Virus record (IMG/VR): IMGVR_UViG_3300018878_000121
Location: 106,354 to 126,353 of that record
Length of the DNA: 20,000 nucleotides
Source: an uncultured virus (IMG/VR IMGVR_UViG_3300018878_000121)
Taxonomy: Duplodnaviria > Heunggongvirae > Uroviricota > Caudoviricetes
Reading direction: 5' to 3' (one strand)
Positions 1 to 11,722 of the stretch are shown piece after piece (the stretch's first letter is position 1; each line of letters starts with the position of its first letter). The position numbers were made by a program, and so were the translations under genes. The notes beneath the pieces were generated by a model. That model made no database searches. It saw only the letters and a list, made by a program, of their open reading frames with translations, and had not been told where the DNA came from.

Positions 1-228
1 TTCTACTTGACCCACATTATAGATATAAGACCTTAATTCTTCAAGCTCCTATTGAATTGGTTCAATTTTACTGTCAATTGTTTCATTCAATTTGTCAGTC
101 TCTTGGTCTGCTAAAAGCTTTTTATAATTTTTCATTTGACTATGCATATATTTACAAAAAGCTAAAGCACCAGCAGAAATTAAACCAAAAATAATTTCAA
201 TGAAATGTTCAGTTAAAAAAGCTAACAT
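1..228 (-). CDS. Holin-like membrane protein, partial (runs off the window end); 1 in-frame TAG at 49-51
   Basis: ATG at 228 after an AAAGGGG RBS. Translation MLAFLTEHFIEIIFGLISAGALAFCKYMHSQMKNYKKLLADQETDKLNETIDSKIEPIQ(TAG)ELEELRSYIYNVGQVE: one N-terminal hydrophobic helix then a coiled coil. The holin call is inferred from this architecture only. Confidence 0.6.
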
Positions 229-234
229 TATAAC

Positions 235-291
235 AAATCCCCTTTCTTAAAATTTTTTCTCACACTATATCAATTTTAAGTAAGGGGATTT
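235..291 (-). promoter_or_regulatory. Stem-loop sequestering the RBS of the holin-like gene
   Basis: Inverted repeat 272-291 / 235-254. On the mRNA, AAAUCCCCUU-A-CUUAAAAUU pairs with AAUUUUAAG-A-AAGGGGAUUU (19 bp, one A/A mismatch, 17-nt loop). The 3' arm contains the Shine-Dalgarno sequence. Confidence 0.7.
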
Positions 292-307
292 TATTTATTC
301 AGACCAA
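266..307 (-). promoter_or_regulatory. Putative phage-specific promoter motif, copy 1 (TTGGTC-N29-TGATATA)
   Basis: Same spacing as the copies upstream of nrdD and the intron endonuclease, but a weaker match in the second box. Confidence 0.4.
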
Positions 308-786
308 TCAAATGATTTTGCCTAAGAGTTTAGATACCAGTGACCAATACATATTGCGTCACTTTCATCTTCTGTAGCTTGTTTATTATAAAGCGTTTTT
401 ATTAATAACTAAGCTTCTTTTTTCTACTCTGGACGAGTTCTACTTTTTATACCGATTTTACTTTTCCATACTGTAGCTAATACAGCTTCAACTGGTATAT
501 CTAATTCTACAATCAATTCATAAATAACACCAAATACTTCTGCTAATGTTTTAAAGGTTTGAACATTTCCTGTTACATTAGATTGAAGTTGTATATCTTC
601 CATTATAACTTTATTAATAGAATAAGTATCAATTAATTGATGAACATTTTTTCTAATATTAAGCAATCTATCTCCTAAATCGGATTGATTACAAGTAAAA
701 TGTCCATAATCAATTAATTGATTATCTTCAAATATAGCATATCCAGTTATTTTAGAAGACTAATCTAAAGATAAGATTCTGCTCAT
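295..786 (-). CDS. ruvC: RuvC-like Holliday junction resolvase, 163 aa; 4 in-frame TAGs (760, 424, 409, 322)
   Basis: With TAG=Q: MSRILSLDQSSKITGYAIF...VIMEDIQ...VWKSKIG...RPEQKKEAQ...EDESDAICIG...WSE-TAA. The RNase H/RuvC acidic residues (D8, E, D-x-x-DA) are present. ATG overlaps the dut stop (ATGA). Confidence 0.85.
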
Positions 787-1478
787 ACTGATTCAAAAAC
801 ATCTGCTTTTAATCCAAGAGAATTAAAAACATCAAGTAATTTTTCATCAATTTTAATTTCGTTATTTAAATTAATTGATTGTAAAGAAGTAGAACCAAAT
901 CCGCCTGTTCGTAAGCCAATAGCTACATCATCTTCAATGGTATAATAAGGTTTAATAATTCCTTGACCAATAATATCTCCTCGTTTTAATTGAATATCAA
1001 ATGGAGATAAATTAATTAATTGAAAGAAAATTTCACCTTCATTATCAGGATTATTATAATAATCAGCGTCAATAATACCAACTCCATTAGCAAGAATAAG
1101 CCAATATTTTAAAGGAGTAGAAGACCGCACGCTTAATTCAAGATAAGTATTTGGAAGTAATTCACATTTCATTCCAGTAGAAACTAAAGAAGGTTTAATT
1201 TTTGATGCTTTAGTAACAGCGGCAACATCTTCAAGAGTATAAGGTTTACTCATCTTTTGCGCAAGCTCATATTCAGCCTTCTTCTTTTCTTCTGAGTCAA
1301 TTACATTCTAATGTAATTGGAATAGTTCATATCTACCAAGCCAATTCAATTCTTCAGAACAAGATGGAATTATAATATCTTCAGCTACAACAAAATCATA
1401 TCCAGCGCTCTGTTCTGTTTTTCTAATTGGTAAAGGTAAATCAATATCATTAAATCTACTTACTTTTTCAAATTTCAT
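783..1478 (-). CDS. dut: Trimeric dUTPase, 231 aa; in-frame TAG at 1308-1310
   Basis: Motif 1 (SAGYDF) lies upstream of the TAG, in frame with motifs 2-5 (RSS, GIIDADY, GQGII, RTGGFGST). ATG at 1478 overlaps the upstream TAA (TAATG). Confidence 0.92.
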
Positions 1479-1723
1479 TATTCTACCTCATAATTAATAT
1501 TAACAAAACTTATCGGGTCTTTTTCATCATTGAAATGTTTGTTTAAAGTAACTTTATACCAACTATCAATAACTGCACCTTTAGATTTTCTTTCTTTAAA
1601 TTCACTAGAATATTTTGCTAATGAAAATTCAGTAGCATTCTTAGCTTCATCAATAATTTCTTTTACTTCATTTTCATTATCTACTCTATATACTTCAATT
1701 GTACTTACAAGATATTTTGACAT
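1478..1723 (-). CDS. Hypothetical protein, 81 aa
   Basis: ORF with a GAGG RBS, tightly packed between its neighbours. Confidence 0.75.
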   Translation of the reverse strand: MSKYLVSTIEVYRVDNENEVKEIIDEAKNATEFSLAKYSSEFKERKSKGAVIDSWYKVTLNKHFNDEKDPISFVNINYEVE

Positions 1724-1724
1724 T

Positions 1725-1985
1725 TTAATTTACCTCAATATTAATTTTTTTAGTATTATAATTTTTTACATTATACATTTGAATATCTTCAATAAAACCT
1801 TCAAGATATCCTTCATTACCATATAGGTGAATATTGTATATATCATATGTATAACAACTACTAACAATTACTTCTGCTAAATTATCAATAGTTGTTGAAG
1901 CTATTTCTCGCTTACCATTATCATCATAAATAAATATATACTAATCAGTATTAAATAAATTAACTGAACTAACAATATAACTCAT
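1725..1985 (-). CDS. Hypothetical protein, 86 aa; in-frame TAG at 1941-1943 (absent from the ORF track)
   Basis: GGAGG RBS, ATG at 1985, MSYIVSSVNLFNTD(TAG)YIFIYDDNGKRE...INIEVN-TAA. It exactly fills the gap between the flanking genes. Confidence 0.75.
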
Positions 1986-1986
1986 T

Positions 1987-2385
1987 TTATCCTCCATATG
2001 AAACCATTAAACCTTCACAATCAAATAAGCACATACATAAATTTTCATCTTCATTTGTCCGCACCCAAATTTCAATTGTATCAGAAGCTTCCATATAATC
2101 AACAGTAATAATCTTACCAATATCTAAAGCGCAAGTAAGAACTGCTTTTCCTTTATTTTCAAAATCCGATTCGTTTGCTTTTGGATAGAAAATAGTATAA
2201 TAAGAAATTTCTTTACATAAAAGCATTAAATTTGAATAATTTTTCATTTTATCATTAATTAATTCAATATAAGGGTCTATATTATCTGCTATTGGAAGCT
2301 ATGAAACAATAGATTTATTTAAATCATATAGATTCATAGAAATATTTCCATAATCTTTAGATTCTTTTTTTAAATTACACTTCAT
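1987..2385 (-). CDS. Hypothetical protein, 132 aa; in-frame TAG at 2299-2301
   Basis: AAGGAG RBS and ATG at 2385 just downstream of a consensus promoter. In frame with the track ORF 1987..2247 through one TAG (NKSIVS-Q-LP). Confidence 0.75.
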
Positions 2386-2415
2386 TATTTATCTCCTTTT
2401 TTATTTTATATAATA

Positions 2416-2444
2416 ATTATATCATATTTTTTTATTTTTGTCAA
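2416..2444 (-). promoter_or_regulatory. sigma70/sigmaA-type promoter
   Basis: TTGACA (2444-2439), 17 nt, TATAAT (2421-2416), with an extended -10 TG. Perfect consensus. Confidence 0.85.
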
Positions 2445-2904
2445 GATAAATAATACGTTGATTGCGGCTTCCTCTCATAGGAAGTGTAATGTCTCTTTCA
2501 GCTTCAATATAAGGTCCATCAATTAAACAAGTAATTAATTCTAAAATTTCTTTTATATTTGGATTATGAGGTAAATCATCGTAAGTATACCCTGTCCATA
2601 AATAAATTTCTGTATCTGGTAATTTTTCTTTAACAGTTTTTATTACCAATAAAGTCAAAAAAGTATTTTCAGGACATAAAGGTTCTCCACCCAAAATACT
2701 TAAAGAACGCTTAATACCATTAGCTTGAAGAGCTTCAATTATTTCATTAATTACATCAGTAGTAAATTCTAGTCCTCCGTCATAATCCCAAGTTTCGGGA
2801 TTATGACAGCCAAGACAATGATGCGGACATCCTTGAGTATAGAAAGAAACTGATACACCAGTTGCCGCAGAAAAATCATTTTTAATTAAACCTGCATATC
2901 GCAT
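2422..2904 (-). CDS. nrdG: Anaerobic ribonucleotide reductase activating protein (radical SAM)
   Basis: CxxxCxxC motif GCPHHCLGCHNPETW, plus LGGEP, DGPY and RGSRNQR. Confidence 0.95.
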   Translation of the reverse strand: MRYAGLIKNDFSAATGVSVSFYTQGCPHHCLGCHNPETWDYDGGLEFTTDVINEIIEALQANGIKRSLSILGGEPLCPENTFLTLLVIKTVKEKLPDTEIYLWTGYTYDDLPHNPNIKEILELITCLIDGPYIEAERDITLPMRGSRNQRIIYLDKNKKI

Positions 2905-6455: not shown

Positions 6456-6681
6456 TTATGTCAATAGCCTCATCTTCATATTCATATTTTAATTGATTAG
6501 GTAATTCATTACGATAAAAAGTATATTTCCTTTTACAGGTAGGACAAAAATAAACATACTGTTCAGGATAAGTACATAAAACTTTACCAGTACTTTTTAT
6601 TTCTTCATTACAATCTTCACAATAAAAGCTATCTATATAGATAGCTTTTACATATCGTCTTTTAATTTTCATCTTCTTCAA
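6442..6681 (-). CDS. Small zinc-ribbon protein
   Basis: Two CxxC pairs (CEDC, CPTC). Overlaps both neighbours. Confidence 0.7.
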   Translation of the reverse strand: MKKMKIKRRYVKAIYIDSFYCEDCNEEIKSTGKVLCTYPEQYVYFCPTCKRKYTFYRNELPNQLKYEYEDEAIDINEEV

Positions 6682-9169
6682 TTCCTCCTTGATAACGTTC
6701 CGAAGTTAATTTTAAATCAGTTTTATTTACAATTTCTTCAATTTTATACAACTGATGACCTGGCGTACTATTGTATTTTTTAACAATAAAATTATCTCCA
6801 GAACGAATACCCATAACCGCAATCATATTACCACGATTAAACCAAGATTTTTCTACAATCTTTTTAGTTCCATCAGGATTTTTGATAGAAATTTGTTTAT
6901 CAAATAAAGAAAAATATTCTTTTCTAAATTTAACTTCTACAACTCCATGAGTTGTTAATAACGTTACTGTGCTTTTAACCTTATTTTTTGCTATACAGGT
7001 TCCGCAAATTTTATGAAGTTTAAACATATGAATTTCTTTTCCTCCACGAGCAAACACTTGGTCTACTATTGGTTCTTCTGGCAAAGCAAAGAAATCAACA
7101 AATCCATATTTATTATGATTTACATCAATTAATTCATGTTCGTGATAATAAAAACATAAAACTTCCATCTCCCAAGCAGAAATTGTACCTGAAGCATATT
7201 TCTCCCAATCTTCAAGAAAAACAGCATCATTTATTTTTACTAAGATTTCATCTTTATTTTCATTAATCCATGTTCTAAAAATATCCATCCAATTTTGATA
7301 AATTTTTTCCCATTGCTTAATATTCATAAAGAAAATTGTATCTTTTGTTATAATCAAATTATCACAATGTACTTCAATAAGAAAATTAATAGCTCTTTCA
7401 TCTAATTTATATAATTCATTATTAAATTTACAAATTGCTTTTAAATAACGATTAAATTCATATACTCTTCTTGCTAAAATTTGTTCTTCAGTTTCAGATG
7501 GAAGTAGATTATATTTAATTAATCCACCCATATTTTGTAGAGTAATTCTTTTTTTTCTATCGCAAGTTTCCCAAATATACCAAGCCATACAAGTTTTACG
7601 TTCCATCATATCATCAAAAGCTCCACCCTTAATCAATGAAATCATAGCTTGCTTGCCTGGATTTACTTTATTCAAAAAATCTCGCGGAGATACATAAGGT
7701 CTATGTTCAATGATAGATGCTACGACATCATCACCAACATTTAATAATCCTTTTAAACCAAAAAGAATTCTATTGTTCTCAGCATCTGGCGCAAAGCCAT
7801 ATTTAGATTTATTAATATTTGCTAAACTAACTTTAATACCAGCAGCTTGAATATCACCAATAGCTTTCGCAATTTTACCATAATCAGTACTTGCGCCAGC
7901 TTCTTCATCAGTTGCGCCACTATTAACAATTAAACAAGCTGTATTCCAATAGATAGGATTAAATTTAGTTGCCAATAAAATTGTTTGAATACCAACAAAT
8001 GAATAAGGTAATGAATGATTTAAACTAAAAGCATATCCAAGTTGTGGAGCGACCGCAACTTCCCAGACATAATCTGCTATATTAGAATTTCCAATTTTTT
8101 CATACACTTGCGCTTTTAATTCCGGAATTTTTGACATCTGTTTTTTTGCTACTATTTTACGAGCAGCGTTTGCTTCACCTAAAGTAAAATTAGCAACCTC
8201 CATCAAAATTTCCATCATTTGCTCTTGGATAGGACAGCAACCATAATATTTATCACAATGTTTATGCATTAACTCAATCATTTTTTCAGGCAAATGATTA
8301 AATTTCATTTCTTTATCAAAAATATTAATTCCTGATTTTTGAATGCGAGCATATCTATCTTGCTGACTTTCTTTACCTTTTTCAGACATAAGTCTCATCA
8401 TAGCATTTGCGGCAGTCATCTCTAAAGGATTTTGTGGTTTAAGTTTTTTCGCAATTGCTAATCCAACACCACCACTAAACTGAAATACATCCAATATATC
8501 ACCTGCGGCTAAATGATTCCAAATATAATTTTCAGATGTGTCAATTATTTCTGGATGAATATATTTATTATAAGTTTCTCTTAAACCAATATTTTCAATT
8601 AAATTATCCTCATGTAACATTTCAAAACATTTAATAATTTTATCAGAAACTTCAGTTACAAGAAAATCATATTTAGTATCACCTGCTGCTTCCGCCGCAT
8701 GTAAGTCAAAACAAGTAATTAAATCTCCATTTGGTGCTCTCATAAAAGATGCTGTATCAAATGGATTTTTATCATAAAGAATTACACCAGAAGCATGAAT
8801 GCCACGTTTATTTACTAATCCCTCTATTGAAATGATAATATCAACCAATCCAGGATATTGATTAACTTCTTTTATAAAAGTTGTAACTGGTTTTCTATCT
8901 TTTTCTTCATCACCATATAATACTTCTGAAATAGACCATAAAAATCCACGTTCTTGAGGAATTAATGATGACATATATTGCGCTACATCTACATCTATTC
9001 CTTCTGGATATTCTTCACTTCTATAACCACGACAAGCTGTAAGAACAGCTGATTTAGTTCCTTCAGTTCCAAAAGTTGCTACCTGAACCAAACCAAATTC
9101 TCCACGTTCTTTACGAATTGCTTCAAAAATCGCTGGTCTTTTACTTGGAGCCAGGTCTATATCAATATC
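6662..9169 (-). CDS. dnaE: DNA polymerase III alpha (family C), exon 2
   Basis: The frame is open from 9169 (DIDIDLAPSKRPAIF...). Contains GIHASGV, KYDFL, QEQMM, GYAFSLNHS, the HhH region GLKGLLNVG and a C-terminal OB fold. The spliced product would be 1292 aa. Confidence 0.93.
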   Translation of the reverse strand, partial: DIDIDLAPSKRPAIFEAIRKERGEFGLVQVATFGTEGTKSAVLTACRGYRSEEYPEGIDVDVAQYMSSLIPQERGFLWSISEVLYGDEEKDRKPVTTFIKEVNQYPGLVDIIISIEGLVNKRGIHASGVILYDKNPFDTASFMRAPNGDLITCFDLHAAEAAGDTKYDFLVTEVSDKIIKCFEMLHEDNLIENIGLRETYNKYIHPEIIDTSENYIWNHLAAGDILDVFQFSGGVGLAIAKKLKPQNPLEMTAANAMMRLMSEKGKESQQDRYARIQKSGINIFDKEMKFNHLPEKMIELMHKHCDKYYGCCPIQEQMMEILMEVANFTLGEANAARKIVAKKQMSKIPELKAQVYEKIGNSNIADYVWEVAVAPQLGYAFSLNHSLPYSFVGIQTILLATKFNPIYWNTACLIVNSGATDEEAGASTDYGKIAKAIGDIQAAGIKVSLANINKSKYGFAPDAENNRILFGLKGLLNVGDDVVASIIEHRPYVSPRDFLNKVNPGKQAMISLIKGGAFDDMMERKTCMAWYIWETCDRKKRITLQNMGGLIKYNLLPSETEEQILARRVYEFNRYLKAICKFNNELYKLDERAINFLIEVHCDNLIITKDTIFFMNIKQWEKIYQNWMDIFRTWINENKDEILVKINDAVFLEDWEKYASGTISAWEMEVLCFYYHEHELIDVNHNKYGFVDFFALPEEPIVDQVFARGGKEIHMFKLHKICGTCIAKNKVKSTVTLLTTHGVVEVKFRKEYFSLFDKQISIKNPDGTKKIVEKSWFNRGNMIAVMGIRSGDNFIVKKYNSTPGHQLYKIEEIVNKTDLKLTSERYQGGIEEDEN

Positions 9170-9291
9170 CGTTTATTGGACTATATTTTTCATAATGACT
9201 TACTAAGAGCATTTTACTTCAGTCATTACTAGAACATCTTTCAGACGGTGCTTATCTCCGCCTTACATAAATAGTCTCTACACATTTAATC

Positions 9292-10074
9292 TTATTTTTC
9301 TATTTGTTTCCAATAATAGCCTTTATATAAAGTTCCATTTTTAATCGCTTTATCTAATTGAGTGTGTCCTTTCATTCCTAAGAATTGTAAGACTGCGGTT
9401 TTAGCATTAAATATTTGAATTAAATTGTAATTTTCATCATACATTTCAATTCGTTTTCCATTTAATGCTTGATTACCACTTTTACCATACATACCATTTT
9501 TTTCGCCAGCGGTTTTACCTTTACTATTTACAGACATTTTCTACTTAGACTCTTCTGTATGTTTTTTACCATACATTCCATTATTAGAACCTTTTGTTTT
9601 TTCACTCATTTTTTGTTTAAACTCTTCAGTTCTATAAGGAGAGTTGTCTCTTTCAAATTCTGCCCAATAAGATAAAAATGCTTTAGTTTTTTCACTATGG
9701 TATTTTCCATACATTCCATTATTCTTACCACGATTTACTTCACTTAATTTTCGGCACAAAACTTCTTTTTCTTCTGGTGTATATCCTGCGGTAGTGTTTC
9801 CTCCACAACCGCCCTCATGAATATTATAAAACAATGGATTTGATGTGGCATTATATAAGGCAATAAATTGTTTTTCTTTTTCACTATTTTCTAAATCATT
9901 TTTAGAAACAAATAAAATGGACTTTGTAAAACAGTCTTTTCCATATTTGGCAATTTCTTTTTTCAATTCTTTTCCGCTGCCTAAATATGAATCATCTAAT
10001 TCTCCATAATGTTTTCCGATATATTTCATACCATTTATATTATTAGTAGTTAAATAAATATAATGTTGTTTCAT
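9292..10074 (-). CDS. Intron-encoded GIY-YIG homing endonuclease with NUMOD3 repeats and a C-terminal NUMOD1-like HTH, 260 aa; in-frame TAG at 9541-9543
   Basis: YIY...KYIG N-terminus and three G-x-N-G-M-Y-G-K repeats. Track ORFs 9541..10074 and 9292..9537 are in frame and join as KHTEESK(TAG)KMS. RBS is AAAGGGGG. Confidence 0.9.
9485..9723. repeat. Coding direct repeats underlying the NUMOD3 modules
   Basis: ccatacattccattatt occurs at 9569-9585 and 9707-9723, with a variant ccatacataccatt at 9485-9498. Confidence 0.7.
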
Positions 10075-10094
10075 TTAAACAACCCCCTTTCATA

Positions 10095-10138
10095 TATATT
10101 TAACTTTTAGAATTAGACAATGACCTGACTTTGTCCAA
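10095..10138 (-). promoter_or_regulatory. Putative phage-specific promoter motif, copy 3 (TTGGAC-N29-TTAAATATA), internal to the intron
   Basis: Directly upstream of the endonuclease RBS, with the same spacing as the nrdD copy. Confidence 0.5.
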
Positions 10139-10351
10139 GATTTTTAGCACGGTATTCCCAATCTAACCTTTTTTAGGTCATAGGGTCTCTTAGTCAGTTG
10201 ATTCGCATTTATATAACATAAATCTTATTTCGCTGATACCGTTAGCCTGCGGTTACTCGTCTCGCCGGTCGGATGACCGGGCCGCCGCAGACACCCATTA
10301 AGCAATGGTTAATGTTCTTTTTTTACAACTGCCCAATATCAATATTAGACT

Positions 10352-11722
10352 AGGCAGTTCGGCTCTCTCTTTATTTAAAAATCTCCAATAAGGGAGACCC
10401 CAACGAATTGGGTCAAGTTGAGTAATACCAAGCAAATAATTTGAAAGAAAACCGGTCGCAGAACCTCGTCCAGGTCCAACAATTGAACCGCATTCCCAAA
10501 ACAAATCAATATAATGTTTAAAAGTATTGAAATAAGCGAAAAGACAATCATCAAGTTTTTCTCCAATAAACTTAATTACATCTGCCTCAATTTCAATACG
10601 ATTAATATATTCTTCATTAAATAAATTTTTATTTATTAATTCTTGTAGACATTCATTAATCCAATATCTTTCTTGAGATTCATCAGATATTAAAAGTGAT
10701 TTAATAATCGGCCAATTAGTATCTAATTCATCTTTTAATGAATTATTAATACCAAAATAAGATAAAGTTTTAGGATAATCTTTTACTTTTACTTTTGGAA
10801 TAATTTGTTTTCTTTCAATTGAATAAAATTCAATTTTATTTTTTATTTCATTTGTATTATTTAAAATCCATTCTGAAATATCATCATCTTGATAAGCATA
10901 TGTTAATAATTCTTTAGCTTCATTATAATCCATTAAACGAGCAAATTCATAAAATGAATCAACTTCTCGTTCTCCACCTTTAGAATTTAAATAAGCTTTA
11001 TGAACCCATCTATCTTGACTTGTATAATAATGAGCATCAGTTCCTGCGACTAATTTAATTCCAAAAGATTGAGAAATAGAGTATAATTTTTTATTAACCA
11101 ATACTTGGTCTTTTGTAGTTGCTGGGGCGCATTCTAAATAGAAATCATCACCAAATAATTCAAGACAATAATTAATAAAATCAATTATTTTTGAATAATA
11201 TACTTTCATTGTTTCCATGTCTTGAACTTCTTCAGCTAAACAAAATTGTAATAAATTTGATGATAATTCTCCACCAAGACAAGCTGTTGTAGCTATTAAA
11301 TGTCCTTTATATTTATTAACAATAGTTGATAATTCTTTTTTTAAAACTGGAACTCTTTCCATTTTTCTATCAACATATAAATTATACCAAGCTATTGAAC
11401 TTAATTCTTTTAATGCCATATAACCAATTTTATCTTTGGCAATTAAAATAAAGTGATAATATTTTTGACCACTACTTCTATCATCTGTTAAATAAATTTC
11501 ATTACCAAGTGCAATTGTAAAATCTGGATTTGTCTCTCTCAATTTCTTAGCATATTGATTTACTTCCATGTGCGCAGATAAACATTCATGGTCTGTAATT
11601 GCTATACCGTTTAAACCCAATTCAATTGCTTTATCAATTAAATCTTTAGGTCTATTTATACAATCAAGTAAGCGAATATTTGAATACATTGTATGATTAT
11701 GACAATTAAAATAACTGTTCAT
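10352..11722 (-). CDS. dnaE: DNA polymerase III alpha (family C), exon 1 (PHP domain and start of the palm)
   Basis: PHP motifs HNHTMYS, ITDHE and TDAHY, then GPGRGSA...LLGITQLDP...RFLNKER. The last 17 codons of the track ORF are intron sequence. Confidence 0.93.

What the first reader, a model, noticed from the sequence alone, without database searches (positions are those of the whole stretch)
9170..10351. Group I intron splitting a phage family-C DNA polymerase exactly at the catalytic P|DID motif
Seen: removing 9170-10351 joins ...ERAELP to DIDIDLAP in frame, with canonical U at the 5' splice site, terminal G, P1 and core helices. Without splicing, translation stops 17 codons into the intron and no active site is made. 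Known: PDIDxD holds two catalytic aspartates of DnaE. The phage polymerase introns I know of (SPO1-like, some T7-like) are in family A enzymes, and DnaE is better known for inteins. Replication would therefore depend on ribozyme splicing.
Basis: partly seen in the sequence, partly recalled or inferred. Interest (0 to 1): 0.75.

Follow-up and report, generated by a model that had tools for sequence, protein, structure and literature searches.

The report
Group I intron in phage DnaE
A self-splicing-type (group I) intron carrying its own DNA-cutting enzyme gene splits the DNA polymerase gene of an uncultured gut phage just before the enzyme's catalytic aspartates; it is a real, tidy example of a known kind of mobile element.

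Summary
On the minus strand, window 10351..9170 (1182 nt) interrupts a phage dnaE gene. Removing it joins ...ERAELP to DIDIDLAP, with no gap in the Pfam profile. The first Asp aligns with residue 401 of E. coli Pol III alpha.

Seventeen of 24 related loci are uninterrupted at this site. Others carry homologous introns there, including a 310-nt copy without an ORF and the Enterococcus phage EF1 intron.

Rfam RF00028 does not hit the window, but it also misses two annotated phage intron loci. It gives sub-threshold hits on 7 of 20 family members.

The fold rests on covariation in P1 (U·G at the splice site, 3 compensatory pairs), P10, P3, P5, P7, P7.1 and P8. It also ends in a terminal G. Splicing itself is not shown, because the RNA contigs gave no junction.

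The intron belongs to a large phage family (at least 121 IMG/VR loci). The family has two extra hairpins between P3 and J3/4. The window's branch has no P2 or P9.

The GIY-YIG endonuclease gene in L6 has one in-frame TAG. The phage is TAG-recoded, so the enzyme is probably intact and made late.

This is a new member of a known kind. This scan has noted dnaE group I introns on other DNA before.

The parts
10352..11722 (-). dnaE exon 1 (457 codons: PHP domain and first part of the Pol III alpha palm), ending ...ERAELP
   Evidence: translation. PHP E=6e-25; PF07733 profile positions 9-102 end at residue 457.
9170..10351 (-). Group I intron, 1182 nt, first base A (10351), last base G (9170)
   Evidence: Identical 1182-nt copies in L001 and L002.
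10352..10359 (-). P1, exon strand AACUGCCU; the U at 10352 is the 5' splice site
   Evidence: In L026, L029, L093 and L106 the exon reads AACUCGGU and the guide reads GCCGAGUU: 3 compensatory pairs, 8/8 paired in 10 of 10 sequences.
10327..10334 (-). P1, internal guide strand GGGCAGUU (G at 10334 pairs with the splice-site U)
10335..10346 (-). P10, intron strand AAUAUUGAUAUU, in the P1 loop; pairs with the first 12 bases of exon 2 (9169..9158)
   Evidence: 9-12 of 12 paired in 10 sequences. Two positions change on both sides (U-A in the window, C-G in L017 and in L029/L093).
10311..10318 (-). P3, 5' strand AGAACAUU, followed by the conserved AAC
   Evidence: 4 compensatory pairs in the subfamily; 40 of 51 distinct family members have at least 7 contiguous pairs with their own 3' region, against 18% in cross-sequence pairings.
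10247..10308 (-). Two hairpins between P3 and J3/4: hpA (10308..10295) and hpB (10290..10247, here with a G+C-rich 32-nt inner part)
   Evidence: The stems differ in sequence between relatives but stay complementary (read by eye; gapped columns spoil the automatic count).
10150..10246 (-). J3/4 (GCUAA) and the P4-P5 domain: P4 10241..10237/10154..10150, P5 10236..10233/10197..10194, P5a hairpin, CUAAGAGA, P5b hairpin
   Evidence: P4 invariant; P5 100% paired with 3 of 4 pairs changed on both sides; P5b outer stem 88% paired; nhmmer E=5.7e-17 over 10250..10144.
10137..10142 (-). P6, 5' strand AAUCUU; pairs with AAGAUU at 9293..9288 and closes the loop that holds the endonuclease gene
   Evidence: Other sequences in L029, L106 and L026 remain complementary (by eye).
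9292..10074 (-). GIY-YIG/NUMOD3 homing endonuclease gene in L6. It has 260 codons if TAG at 9543..9541 (codon 178) is read as sense. The Shine-Dalgarno-like GAAAGGGGG lies upstream. The stop TAA (9294..9292) overlaps the P6 3' strand.
   Evidence: phrog_314 matches residues 1-225 in one stretch. Bacillus phage G gp330 matches residues 5-255, 45.7% identity.
9271..9278 (-). P7, 5' strand G[A]GACUAU with a bulged A (9277); pairs with AUAGUCC at 9184..9178
   Evidence: the pair beyond the bulge is G-C in 12, A-U in 10 and U-A in 1 of 23 sequences, none unpaired.
9244..9262 (-). P7.1 hairpin GGCGG-AGAUAAGCA-CCGUC between P7 and the P3 3' strand
   Evidence: 5/5 paired in 10 of 10, 2 compensatory pairs.
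9231..9238 (-). P3, 3' strand GAUGUUCU (forms the P3-P7 pseudoknot)
9192..9229 (-). P8 hairpin (9-bp stem, 20-nt loop)
   Evidence: 9/9 paired in 10 of 10, 5 compensatory pairs.
9170..9184 (-). P7 3' strand, a 7-nt tail and the terminal G (9170); no P9 hairpin
6662..9169 (-). dnaE exon 2 (835 codons), starting DIDIDLAP: rest of palm, fingers, HhH, C-terminal part
   Evidence: PF07733 positions 103-259, fingers, HHH_6..

Best explanation
Window 10351..9170 (minus strand) is a mobile group I intron in the dnaE (Pol III alpha, family C) gene of an uncultured gut phage that reads TAG as a sense codon.

The gene is transcribed as one precursor. The intron RNA folds into a P3-P7 pseudoknotted core:
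- P1 is formed by the last 8 exon bases and the internal guide, with U·G at the cleavage site.
- P3 follows P1 directly, with no P2.
- Two extra hairpins lie between P3 and J3/4.
- The P4-P5-P6 domain follows.
- P7 has a bulged A. Then come P7.1 and P8.
- The 3' tail is short, ends in G, and has no P9.
- A long P10 pairs the P1 loop with the start of exon 2.

Splicing by the usual two transesterifications (inferred) would join CUGCCU to GAUAUU. That restores the P-D-I-D-I-D motif, whose first and third residues correspond to the catalytic Asp401 and Asp403 of E. coli Pol III alpha.

Loop L6 carries a 260-codon GIY-YIG/NUMOD3 homing endonuclease gene. By analogy with other intron endonucleases, the enzyme would cut intronless dnaE alleles of co-infecting relatives and so spread the intron (inferred).

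The gene's single in-frame TAG would hold back full-length enzyme until the phage's TAG-to-sense decoding is active, probably late in infection (inferred).

Shown here: the exact in-frame boundaries, the fold by covariation, homology to a large phage intron family, intronless and intron-bearing alleles, and TAG recoding of the genome.

Not shown: splicing, endonuclease activity, and timing.
For: Boundaries:
- Pfam profile positions 102|103 meet at the junction.
- Exon-2 residue 1 aligns with E. coli residue 401.
- 17 of 24 related loci are continuous at the site.

Fold, from 10 same-site introns of the subfamily:
- P1: 8/8 paired in all, 3 compensatory pairs.
- P10: 2 compensatory pairs.
- P3: 4.
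- P5: 1.
- P5b outer stem: 3.
- P7.1: 2.
- P8: 5.

Fold, family-wide:
- P3: 40 of 51 distinct introns have at least 7 bp with their own partner region, against 18% in cross pairings. There are 40 different 5' strands.
- On 23 sequences, the covariation score is 0.268 against 0.121 shuffled (0 of 500 shuffles reach it) and at most 0.102 when slid.
- The P7 pair beyond the bulge is GC 12, AU 10, UA 1.
- An energy fold of the ORF-less copy L017 recovers P1, P3, both extra hairpins, P4, P7.1 and P8, z = -3.3.

Family:
- The pattern CTAAGAGA-N24-40-AATACCGTG finds at least 121 IMG/VR loci.
- 100 of 127 matches also have TAACGG upstream.
- RF00028 hits 7 of 20 family loci at the intron, with E from 3e-7 to 0.03.
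- A profile built from those 7 hits window 10250..10144 with E=5.7e-17.
- blastn links the core to terL introns of Staphylococcus Kayvirus and Silviavirus phages, annotated as group I.
- For phage fRuSau02, the full terminase large subunit was seen by mass spectrometry (PMC5618024, passages read).

Same site in a named phage: EF1, MF001358...ELP|DVDID with an HNH endonuclease annotated 'Phage intron'.

Endonuclease:
- NUMOD3 58.9 bits and SegE_GIY-YIG 26.6 bits.
- Full-length matches run across the TAG.
- All 7 internal stops in 5 related endonuclease genes are TAG, with 0 TAA or TGA. Each of the 5 frames then ends at TAA.

Recoding:
- ORFs of at least 450 nt cover 38% of the genome under table 11 and 76% with TAG as sense.
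- The late plus-strand genes carry up to 78 TAGs, while 12 of the 13 TAG-free long ORFs are minus-strand genes, among them most of the window's replication genes.
- A portal gene with 9 TAGs matches phrog_2739 end to end, E=8e-88.
Against: - RF00028 gives nothing on the window, on the ORF-less sibling L017, or on the whole record, even at E<=10. None of the family hits reaches the gathering score of 50 bits.
- No spliced junction was found. Four RNA-library runs hold only contigs about 90-95% like the window. Two of those contigs run unspliced across the 5' splice site. No joint 10352/9169 was listed. These libraries may contain DNA.
- The fold departs from textbook group I: no P2, no P9, and two hairpins where J3/4 normally follows P3 directly. 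I could not test subgroup models.
- P4 and most of P7 never vary, so they are supported by conservation only.
- No tRNA with anticodon CTA is among the 17 tRNAs ARAGORN finds in the 126-kb record. How TAG is decoded is therefore not shown. The record is estimated 71% complete.
- Only 3 of the 7 endonuclease TAGs align with Gln in relatives.
- Pfam GIY-YIG (PF01541) is marginal: 22.7 bits against a cut-off of 22.6 for the 177-aa piece, and 21.6 bits for the 260-aa reading.
Confidence: 0.9

Rival explanations
1. The dnaE gene is a true two-piece gene. A free-standing endonuclease cassette split it, there is no RNA splicing, and the two polypeptides assemble into one enzyme, as proposed for some other phage DnaE genes.
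For: Split, intron-free phage DnaE genes were noted earlier in this scan on other DNA (notes e1-5645089, e1-5989265, e1-5696365; unchecked AI notes). No spliced RNA was seen here.
Against: Exon 2 has no start codon at its beginning. The first ATG/GTG/TTG in frame is the TTG at 9091, 26 codons after the DID motif, so a separate product would lack the two catalytic aspartates.

Exon 1 would carry a 17-residue read-through tail.

The intervening DNA has a complete, covarying ribozyme fold whose guide sequence tracks the exon sequence.

A 310-nt copy without any ORF sits at the same place in L017.
Confidence: 0.03
2. It is a group I intron by descent but no longer splices. On this reading the polymerase gene is dead and the phage relies on a host or other polymerase.
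For: No direct evidence of splicing. RF00028 is silent. There is no P2 or P9.
Against: Both exons are open and match their Pfam domains in full.

Helices keep pairing through compensatory changes across relatives.

The 1182-nt intron is identical in two other contigs.

No other polymerase of family A or B is found in the record.
Confidence: 0.05
3. The endonuclease gene is a pseudogene knocked out by a nonsense mutation. It would make at most a 177-aa fragment, and the intron is no longer mobile.
For: Under table 11 the frame stops at codon 178. No suppressor tRNA was found in the record. L017 and L149 have lost the ORF altogether, as expected late in a homing cycle.
Against: The frame stays open and conserved for 82 more codons, ending at TAA.

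Full-length homologues align across the TAG.

All 7 internal stops in the relatives' genes are TAG, and none is TAA or TGA, in A+T-rich DNA.

The genome uses TAG as sense in its late genes.
Confidence: 0.2
4. The insertion is an intein or a group II intron.
For: DnaE genes are well known as hosts of inteins (recalled; PMC4760082 seen in search listing only).
Against: The exon-1 frame stops 17 codons into the insert. Pfam finds no intein or reverse-transcriptase domain in the insert's ORFs. The RNA fold is of group I type.
Confidence: 0.005

Closest known systems
Enterococcus phage EF1 / EF5 dnaE intron (GenBank MF001358, MF001361)
   Same: Same host gene and the same codon boundary (...ELP|DVDID). 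Same intron family (core motifs, P3 and P7.1 alignable). The endonuclease gene sits in the same loop.
   Different: EF1 carries an HNH endonuclease, not GIY-YIG. It has a P9 hairpin, a shorter P1 and no long P10. The phage is said not to be recoded (PMC10607447, passage read). I found it only as a database annotation, not described in a paper.
terL group I introns of Staphylococcus Kayvirus/Silviavirus phages (phiIPLA-RODI NC_028765, Romulus JX846613; I-MsaI intron of fRuSau02, PMC5618024)
   Same: Sequence similarity in the P4-P5 core (82-84% over 50 nt). P1 is followed directly by P3 with no P2. Similar R and S elements. The L049-type dnaE intron shares their 3' end (by eye).
   Different: The host gene is different. 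P3 is directly followed by J3/4, without the two extra hairpins. The endonuclease is of a different family and sits further 3' in the intron.
Phage T4 td intron with I-TevI (recalled, not tested here)
   Same: A GIY-YIG endonuclease gene looped out of P6. Similar J3/4-P4 and P4-J-P6 sequence as I recall it. Endonuclease expression is delayed relative to the host gene.
   Different: td has P2, P7.2 and P9-P9.2. In T4 the delay comes from late promoters and an RNA hairpin, not from a recoded stop codon. The host gene is thymidylate synthase.
Group I introns in family A DNA polymerase genes of phages (SPO1/SP82, Bastille, Pf-WMP3)
   Same: A mobile group I intron with a homing endonuclease in a phage replicative polymerase gene, at a conserved motif (PMC3428280 abstract seen; SPO1 and Bastille papers seen only as references).
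   Different: Those enzymes are family A. Here the host is the family C (DnaE) enzyme.
Recoded intron endonuclease of 'Agate' gut phages (Borges et al. preprint, 10.1101/2021.08.26.457843, passage read)
   Same: A group I intron endonuclease inside an early gene carries in-frame recoded stop codons. The authors propose that these hold back the endonuclease until late in infection.
   Different: There the recoded codon is TGA (Trp). Here it is TAG (probably Gln). The host gene is not named in the passage I read.
phAss-1 and relatives (OQ749652; PMC10607447)
   Same: Gut phages of about 130 kb with TAG read as Gln in late genes and a related DnaE (38.5% identity). The paper places EF1 in the same wider group.
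   Different: The phAss-1 dnaE is one continuous CDS. The paper's main text holds no 'intron' or 'homing'.

Membership tests
Group I intron | 5' exon ends in U, paired with G of an internal guide sequence (P1) | tested here: met
   P1 is 8/8 paired in 10 of 10 subfamily introns, with 3 compensatory pairs tracking an exon change from LP to LG.
Group I intron | Intron ends in G (omega G) | tested here: met
   G at 9170. All 18 same-site rows printed, the window included, end in G.
Group I intron | Conserved core: P3-P7 pseudoknot, P4-P6 domain, P8, and P7 with a bulged nucleotide next to the G-binding pair | tested here: met
   Covariation. P4 and five P7 pairs are invariant, so for those there is conservation only.
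Group I intron | Match to the Rfam model RF00028 at its gathering score | tested here: not met
   No hit on the window or on L017 at E<=10.

Controls: the model at E<=1 also misses two annotated phage intron loci. It gives 24.6-41.5 bits on 7 of 20 family members.

PMC11878797 (passages read) states that Rfam and GISSD models may fail on phage introns.
Group I intron | Removal restores the host reading frame exactly | tested here: met
Group I intron | Splicing observed (spliced RNA, or GTP-dependent self-splicing) | tested here: inconclusive
   only low-depth contigs of about 90-95% relatives in four RNA-library runs, and no joint at 10352/9169. In vitro splicing is not testable with these tools.
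Subgroup IA2 (phage-type group I introns) | Extra pairings P7.1/P7.2 between P7 and the P3 3' strand; P2; P9 with extensions | tested here: inconclusive
   P7.1 is present and covaries. P7.2, P2 and P9 are absent in the window. Two hairpins lie between P3 and J3/4. The defining list is recalled, and no subgroup models (GISSD or the 2025 database) are on hand.
GIY-YIG homing endonuclease (I-TevI-like, with NUMOD3) | GIY-YIG catalytic domain followed by NUMOD3 DNA-binding repeats | tested here: met
   - SegE_GIY-YIG: 26.6 bits (cut-off 25).
- GIY-YIG: 22.7 bits (cut-off 22.6) for the 177-aa piece, and 21.6 bits for the 260-aa reading.
- NUMOD3: 58.9-65.4 bits (cut-off 20.4).
- phrog_314 homing endonuclease: E=3e-34.
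GIY-YIG homing endonuclease (I-TevI-like, with NUMOD3) | Uninterrupted reading frame | tested here: inconclusive
   Broken by TAG at codon 178 under table 11. Open for 260 codons with TAG as sense. The genome is TAG-recoded.
GIY-YIG homing endonuclease (I-TevI-like, with NUMOD3) | Cuts the intronless allele near the insertion site | not testable with these tools
   Candidate targets exist: 17 intronless loci.
DNA polymerase III alpha (DnaE, family C) | PHP, palm (PF07733), fingers and HhH domains in order, and the catalytic Asp pair | tested here: met
   (all four Pfam domains above cut-off across the two exons). (alignment to solved DnaE chains from residue 401/463). That Asp401 and Asp403 are catalytic is recalled knowledge.
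TAG-recoded phage (translation table 15 type) | Many in-frame TAGs in genes whose full-length products match known families | tested here: met
TAG-recoded phage (translation table 15 type) | Phage-encoded suppressor tRNA with anticodon CTA | tested here: not met
   None among the 17 tRNAs in the 126-kb record. The record is estimated 71% complete. PMC10607447 notes that some recoded phages lack such genes.
Intein | In-frame insertion translated with the host protein | tested here: not met
   The frame stops after 17 codons.

The most novel reading that the evidence does not exclude
The intron represents a structurally distinct and abundant lineage of phage group I introns. Its marks are:
- P1 joined straight to P3.
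- Two conserved hairpins inserted between P3 and J3/4.
- In the window's branch, no P9 and a 12-bp P10.

The current Rfam model largely misses this lineage. It has colonised the codon boundary before the catalytic aspartates of DnaE in many gut phages, with at least two unrelated endonuclease families.

In TAG-recoded phages, its endonuclease gene has acquired TAG codons. These would act as a timing switch: the polymerase is made early by splicing, and the homing enzyme only once UAG is decoded.
Probability: 0.4. Interest if true: 0.55.

Novelty: new member of a known kind. Interest (0 to 1): 0.38.

Why it matters
It adds the family C (DnaE) polymerase to the phage replication genes known to host mobile group I introns. 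It also shows the site before the catalytic aspartates to be a recurrent landing place.

It is a practical warning for annotation. The standard Rfam model does not see this intron family, so such dnaE genes are filed as two fragments plus a 'broken' endonuclease gene.

The combination with TAG recoding gives a natural case in which splicing of an early gene and translation of the intron's own enzyme could be separated in time. An infection time course could test this if a host is found.

None of this changes what is known about how group I introns work.

Tried and rejected
Rfam RF00028:
- Searched the whole window at gathering score.
- Searched 8900-10600 and 10060-10370 at E<=10.
- Searched the whole record and the ORF-less sibling L017. 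There were no hits, only chance-level snoRNA and leader matches.

megablast of 9000-10500 against GenBank phages: no match.

RNA evidence:
- One search for runs and one laying of four RNA-library runs.
- Only contigs from relatives about 90-95% alike were found, with low depth and no joint across the intron.
- One contig of run X19 begins exactly at 10352, the last exon base. I take that as a contig break, not as evidence.
- Parts without cover are not interpreted.

MAFFT alignments of 23 and 12 family members were too poor in the P7.1-P3'-P8 region, and too long (527 and 456 columns), for a covariance model of my own. I therefore built none. I tested P3 by an alignment-free pairing count and the subfamily with two half-alignments.

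In one search the counts for hpA, hpB, P5a and P6 are spoiled by gapped columns. Those helices rest on reading the rows by eye. In the same call my P4 (6 bp) shared one base with P5. The 5-bp P4 is the one I use.

I first read the endonuclease genes of the window, L024 and L026 as decayed. I dropped that reading once every internal stop proved to be TAG and the genome proved recoded.

The promoter scan of 9000-10500 found nothing upstream of the endonuclease gene.

Pfam found nothing in five late proteins read with TAG=Q. PHROGs did.

The PDB sequence search with the endonuclease gave nothing useful.

Literature: five searches found no paper describing a group I intron in a phage dnaE gene.

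The search of earlier findings by place found nothing for this genome.
Full report
**What is in the sequence**

The feature lies on the minus strand. An ORF from 11722 to 10298 encodes the N-terminal part of a Pol III alpha (DnaE) protein. It has a PHP domain and Pfam PF07733 profile positions 9-102, ending at residue 457, the P of ERAELP. After that residue the frame runs 17 more codons to a TAA.

A second open frame from 9169 to 6662 starts DIDIDLAP. It continues PF07733 at profile position 103, followed by the finger and HhH domains. Deleting 10351..9170 therefore restores the protein without loss or gain of a residue.

By sequence search against solved structures, the first residue of exon 2 aligns with residue 401 of the E. 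coli enzyme and residue 463 of the Thermus aquaticus enzyme. From recalled literature, these are the first of the two neighbouring catalytic aspartates.

The last exon base is U and the last intron base is G. The exon's AACUGCCU pairs with GGGCAGUU 17 bases into the intron.

**Related alleles**

A scan of IMG/VR with exon 2 gave 26 loci, of which 24 cover the junction.

- Seventeen are uninterrupted exactly here. Several read ...CCT|GAT....
- L001 and L002 carry an intron identical to the window's.
- L017 has a 310-nt homologue without any ORF.
- L024 and L026 have homologues of 1156 and 1197 nt.
- L019 and L020 have an insertion I did not resolve.

The named Enterococcus phage EF1 (MF001358) has its dnaE annotated in three pieces. 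An 'HNH homing endonuclease # Phage intron' lies between the first two. Its intron sits at the same boundary...ELP|DVDID.

The related gut phage phAss-1 has a continuous dnaE.

**Is it a group I intron?**

Rfam's RF00028 says nothing about the window, about L017, or about the whole 126-kb record. I treated this as a real negative and ran controls.

- The model at E<=1 is equally silent on the EF1 locus and on a Staphylococcus phage terL locus annotated with a group I intron protein.
- On 20 other members of the same intron family, it hits the intron in 7 (E from 2.9e-7 to 0.034, 24.6-41.5 bits). All are below the 50-bit gathering score.
- A sequence profile built from those 7 alone finds window 10250..10144 at E=5.7e-17.
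- A 2025 study of Bastillevirinae introns makes the same point, that Rfam and GISSD models may miss phage introns (PMC11878797, passages read).

The positive case rests on structure.

In ten introns of the window's own branch:
- P1 pairs 8/8 in all. When the exon changes from ...CUGCCU (Leu-Pro) to ...CUCGGU (Leu-Gly), the guide changes from GGGCAG to GCCGAG. That is three compensatory pairs.
- P3 has 4 compensatory pairs.
- P5 has 1.
- The outer stem of P5b has 3.
- P7.1 has 2.
- P8 has 5.
- P10 has 2.

Family-wide:
- The 8 bases before a conserved AAC pair with at least 7 contiguous bases in their own P7-to-P7' interval in 40 of 51 distinct introns. There are 40 different sequences. In cross pairings the figure is 18%. 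This is the P3 half of the P3-P7 pseudoknot.
- On a 23-sequence alignment, the tool count gives a covariation score of 0.268, against 0.121 for shuffles (0 of 500 reach it) and at most 0.102 for slid partners.
- The pair beyond the bulged base of P7 is G-C in 12, A-U in 10 and U-A in 1, never unpaired.
- P4 and the other five P7 pairs are invariant.
- An energy-only fold of L017 finds P1, P3, P4, P7.1, P8 and both extra hairpins.

**Anatomy**

Coordinates are and by hand:
- P1: 10359..10352 with 10334..10327.
- P10: 10346..10335 with 9169..9158.
- P3: 10318..10311 with 9238..9231.
- hpA: 10308..10295.
- hpB: 10290..10247.
- J3/4: GCUAA.
- P4: 10241..10237 with 10154..10150.
- P5: 10236..10233 with 10197..10194.
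- P6: 10142..10137 with 9293..9288, closing the ORF-bearing loop.
- P7: 9278 and 9276..9271 with 9184..9178.
- P7.1: 9262..9244.
- P8: 9229..9192.
- A seven-base tail, then the terminal G at 9170.

Three things are unusual against the textbook picture:
- There is no P2.
- There is no P9.
- Two hairpins lie between P3 and J3/4.

The Kayvirus terL intron shares the core sequence. It also lacks P2, but there P3 runs straight into J3/4. The two hairpins are present in all 23 aligned family members. I could not check them against subgroup definitions.

**The family**

Of 127 matches, 100 also have TAACGG within 160 bases upstream.

Among these loci, tblastn finds further dnaE junctions.

- Twelve have borders readable at the same P|D boundary.
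- One type (L049, L082, L134) sits one codon downstream.
- Endonucleases differ: GIY-YIG in the window's branch, HNH in EF1.

The record itself holds only this one copy of the family.

**The endonuclease and the genetic code**

Loop L6 holds an ORF with GIY-YIG and NUMOD3 matches. Under table 11 it stops at a TAG after 177 codons, but the frame continues for 82 more codons to a TAA.

I first took this, and similar breaks in L024 and L026, for decay. That was wrong.

- All 7 internal stops in the 5 related genes that have any are TAG, and each of those 5 frames then ends at TAA.
- Read with TAG as sense, the window's product matches a PHROGs homing endonuclease family over residues 1-225. It also matches Bacillus phage G gp330 over residues 5-255.

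The genome explains it.

- ORFs of at least 450 nt cover 38% of the record under table 11 and 76% with TAG as sense.
- The long plus-strand genes between 44 and 102 kb carry 0 to 78 in-frame TAGs each, and only one of them has none.
- The minus-strand replication genes of the window carry none, except one ORF with two.
- A portal gene with nine TAGs matches its family end to end.

A related group of gut phages reading TAG as Gln has been described (PMC10607447, passages read).

For TGA-recoded 'Agate' phages, Borges and colleagues already noted an intron endonuclease in an early gene. They proposed that its recoded stops delay its production (preprint 10.1101/2021.08.26.457843, passage read). 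The window is a TAG counterpart of that idea.

Caveats: no tRNA with anticodon CTA is in the 126 kb held. Only 3 of the 7 TAGs align with Gln in relatives.

**What is not shown**

Splicing is not shown. Four RNA-library runs hold only low-depth contigs from relatives about 90-95% alike. Two of these contigs cross the 5' splice site unspliced, and no joint across the intron is listed. These libraries may hold DNA, so this neither supports nor refutes splicing.

Endonuclease activity, its target and the timing are inferences.

That replication depends on splicing is likely, since no family A or B polymerase is found. But the record is estimated 71% complete.

**Rivals**

- Two-piece DnaE without splicing. 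This is unlikely. Exon 2 has no start before the catalytic motif: the first candidate start is 26 codons in. The insert is a covarying ribozyme whose guide tracks the exon.
- A dead intron. This is unlikely, given intact exons and compensatory change.
- An intein. The frame excludes it.

**Novelty**

Mobile group I introns with homing endonucleases in phage replication genes, placed at catalytic motifs, are a known kind.

- I found no paper on one in a phage dnaE.
- A GenBank annotation shows one.
- Earlier notes of this scan report several on other DNA (e1-5907624, e1-5664124, e1-5760256, e1-5348554; unchecked).

I therefore file it as a new member of a known kind. There are two side points worth a specialist's look: the poorly modelled intron lineage, and the TAG-gated endonuclease gene.

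Noticed in passing
whole record G000 (window = G000:C1:106354-126353); in the window 295..2385 minus strand: The phage reads TAG as a sense codon. ORF coverage is 38% under table 11 and 76% with TAG as sense. Late plus-strand genes at 44-102 kb carry up to 78 in-frame TAGs.

The portal gene has 9 TAGs and matches phrog_2739 end to end. No tRNA with anticodon CTA is among the 17 tRNAs found.

In the window itself, small minus-strand ORFs at 295..2385 merge when TAG is read as Gln.
   Followed up: partly
L005, L006, L014, L015, L016, L021, L025, L027 (EF1): after exon-2 residue about 378 (APQLG|YAFS): A second insertion of about 990-1190 nt in the dnaE of relatives, absent from the window. It has group I-like R and S elements and a P1-like pairing at its 5' end. 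EF1 annotates a 'hypothetical protein' there.
   Followed up: partly
L019 / L020 (155-kb and 20-kb contigs): The dnaE of this relative looks broken by about four insertions. One, of about 270 nt, lies at the KYDFL motif, which by recall holds the third catalytic Asp. About 30 codons before the DID motif could not be placed. Micro-exons are possible.
   Followed up: no
L049, L082, L087, L134, L147: A 348-nt ORF-less intron of the same family sits one codon downstream of the window's site (...LSD|VDID). Its 3' end resembles that of the Staphylococcus Kayvirus terL intron.
   Followed up: partly
window 10253..10284 (minus strand): A G+C-rich 32-nt inner hairpin (CCGGUC/GACCGG stem) is inserted in hpB of the window's intron. 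It is absent from L017 and L024, which have a 4-bp stem with a short loop. It stands out in an A+T-rich genome. A weak chance Rfam match (cyano-S1, plus strand) falls on it.
   Followed up: no
L044 (IMG/VR contig of 102 kb), 145..2595: RF00028 gives five hits within 2.5 kb, one of them above the gathering score (51.7 bits). This points to an intron-dense region in another phage.
   Followed up: no
window 9292..9294: The endonuclease gene's stop codon TAA overlaps the 3' strand of P6. A ribosome finishing the ORF would therefore sit on the helix that closes the loop.
   Followed up: no
L062-L064 (one 159-kb contig): Four matches to the family's core motif lie about 1.3 kb apart on one strand, suggesting several introns in neighbouring genes or in one gene.
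   Followed up: no
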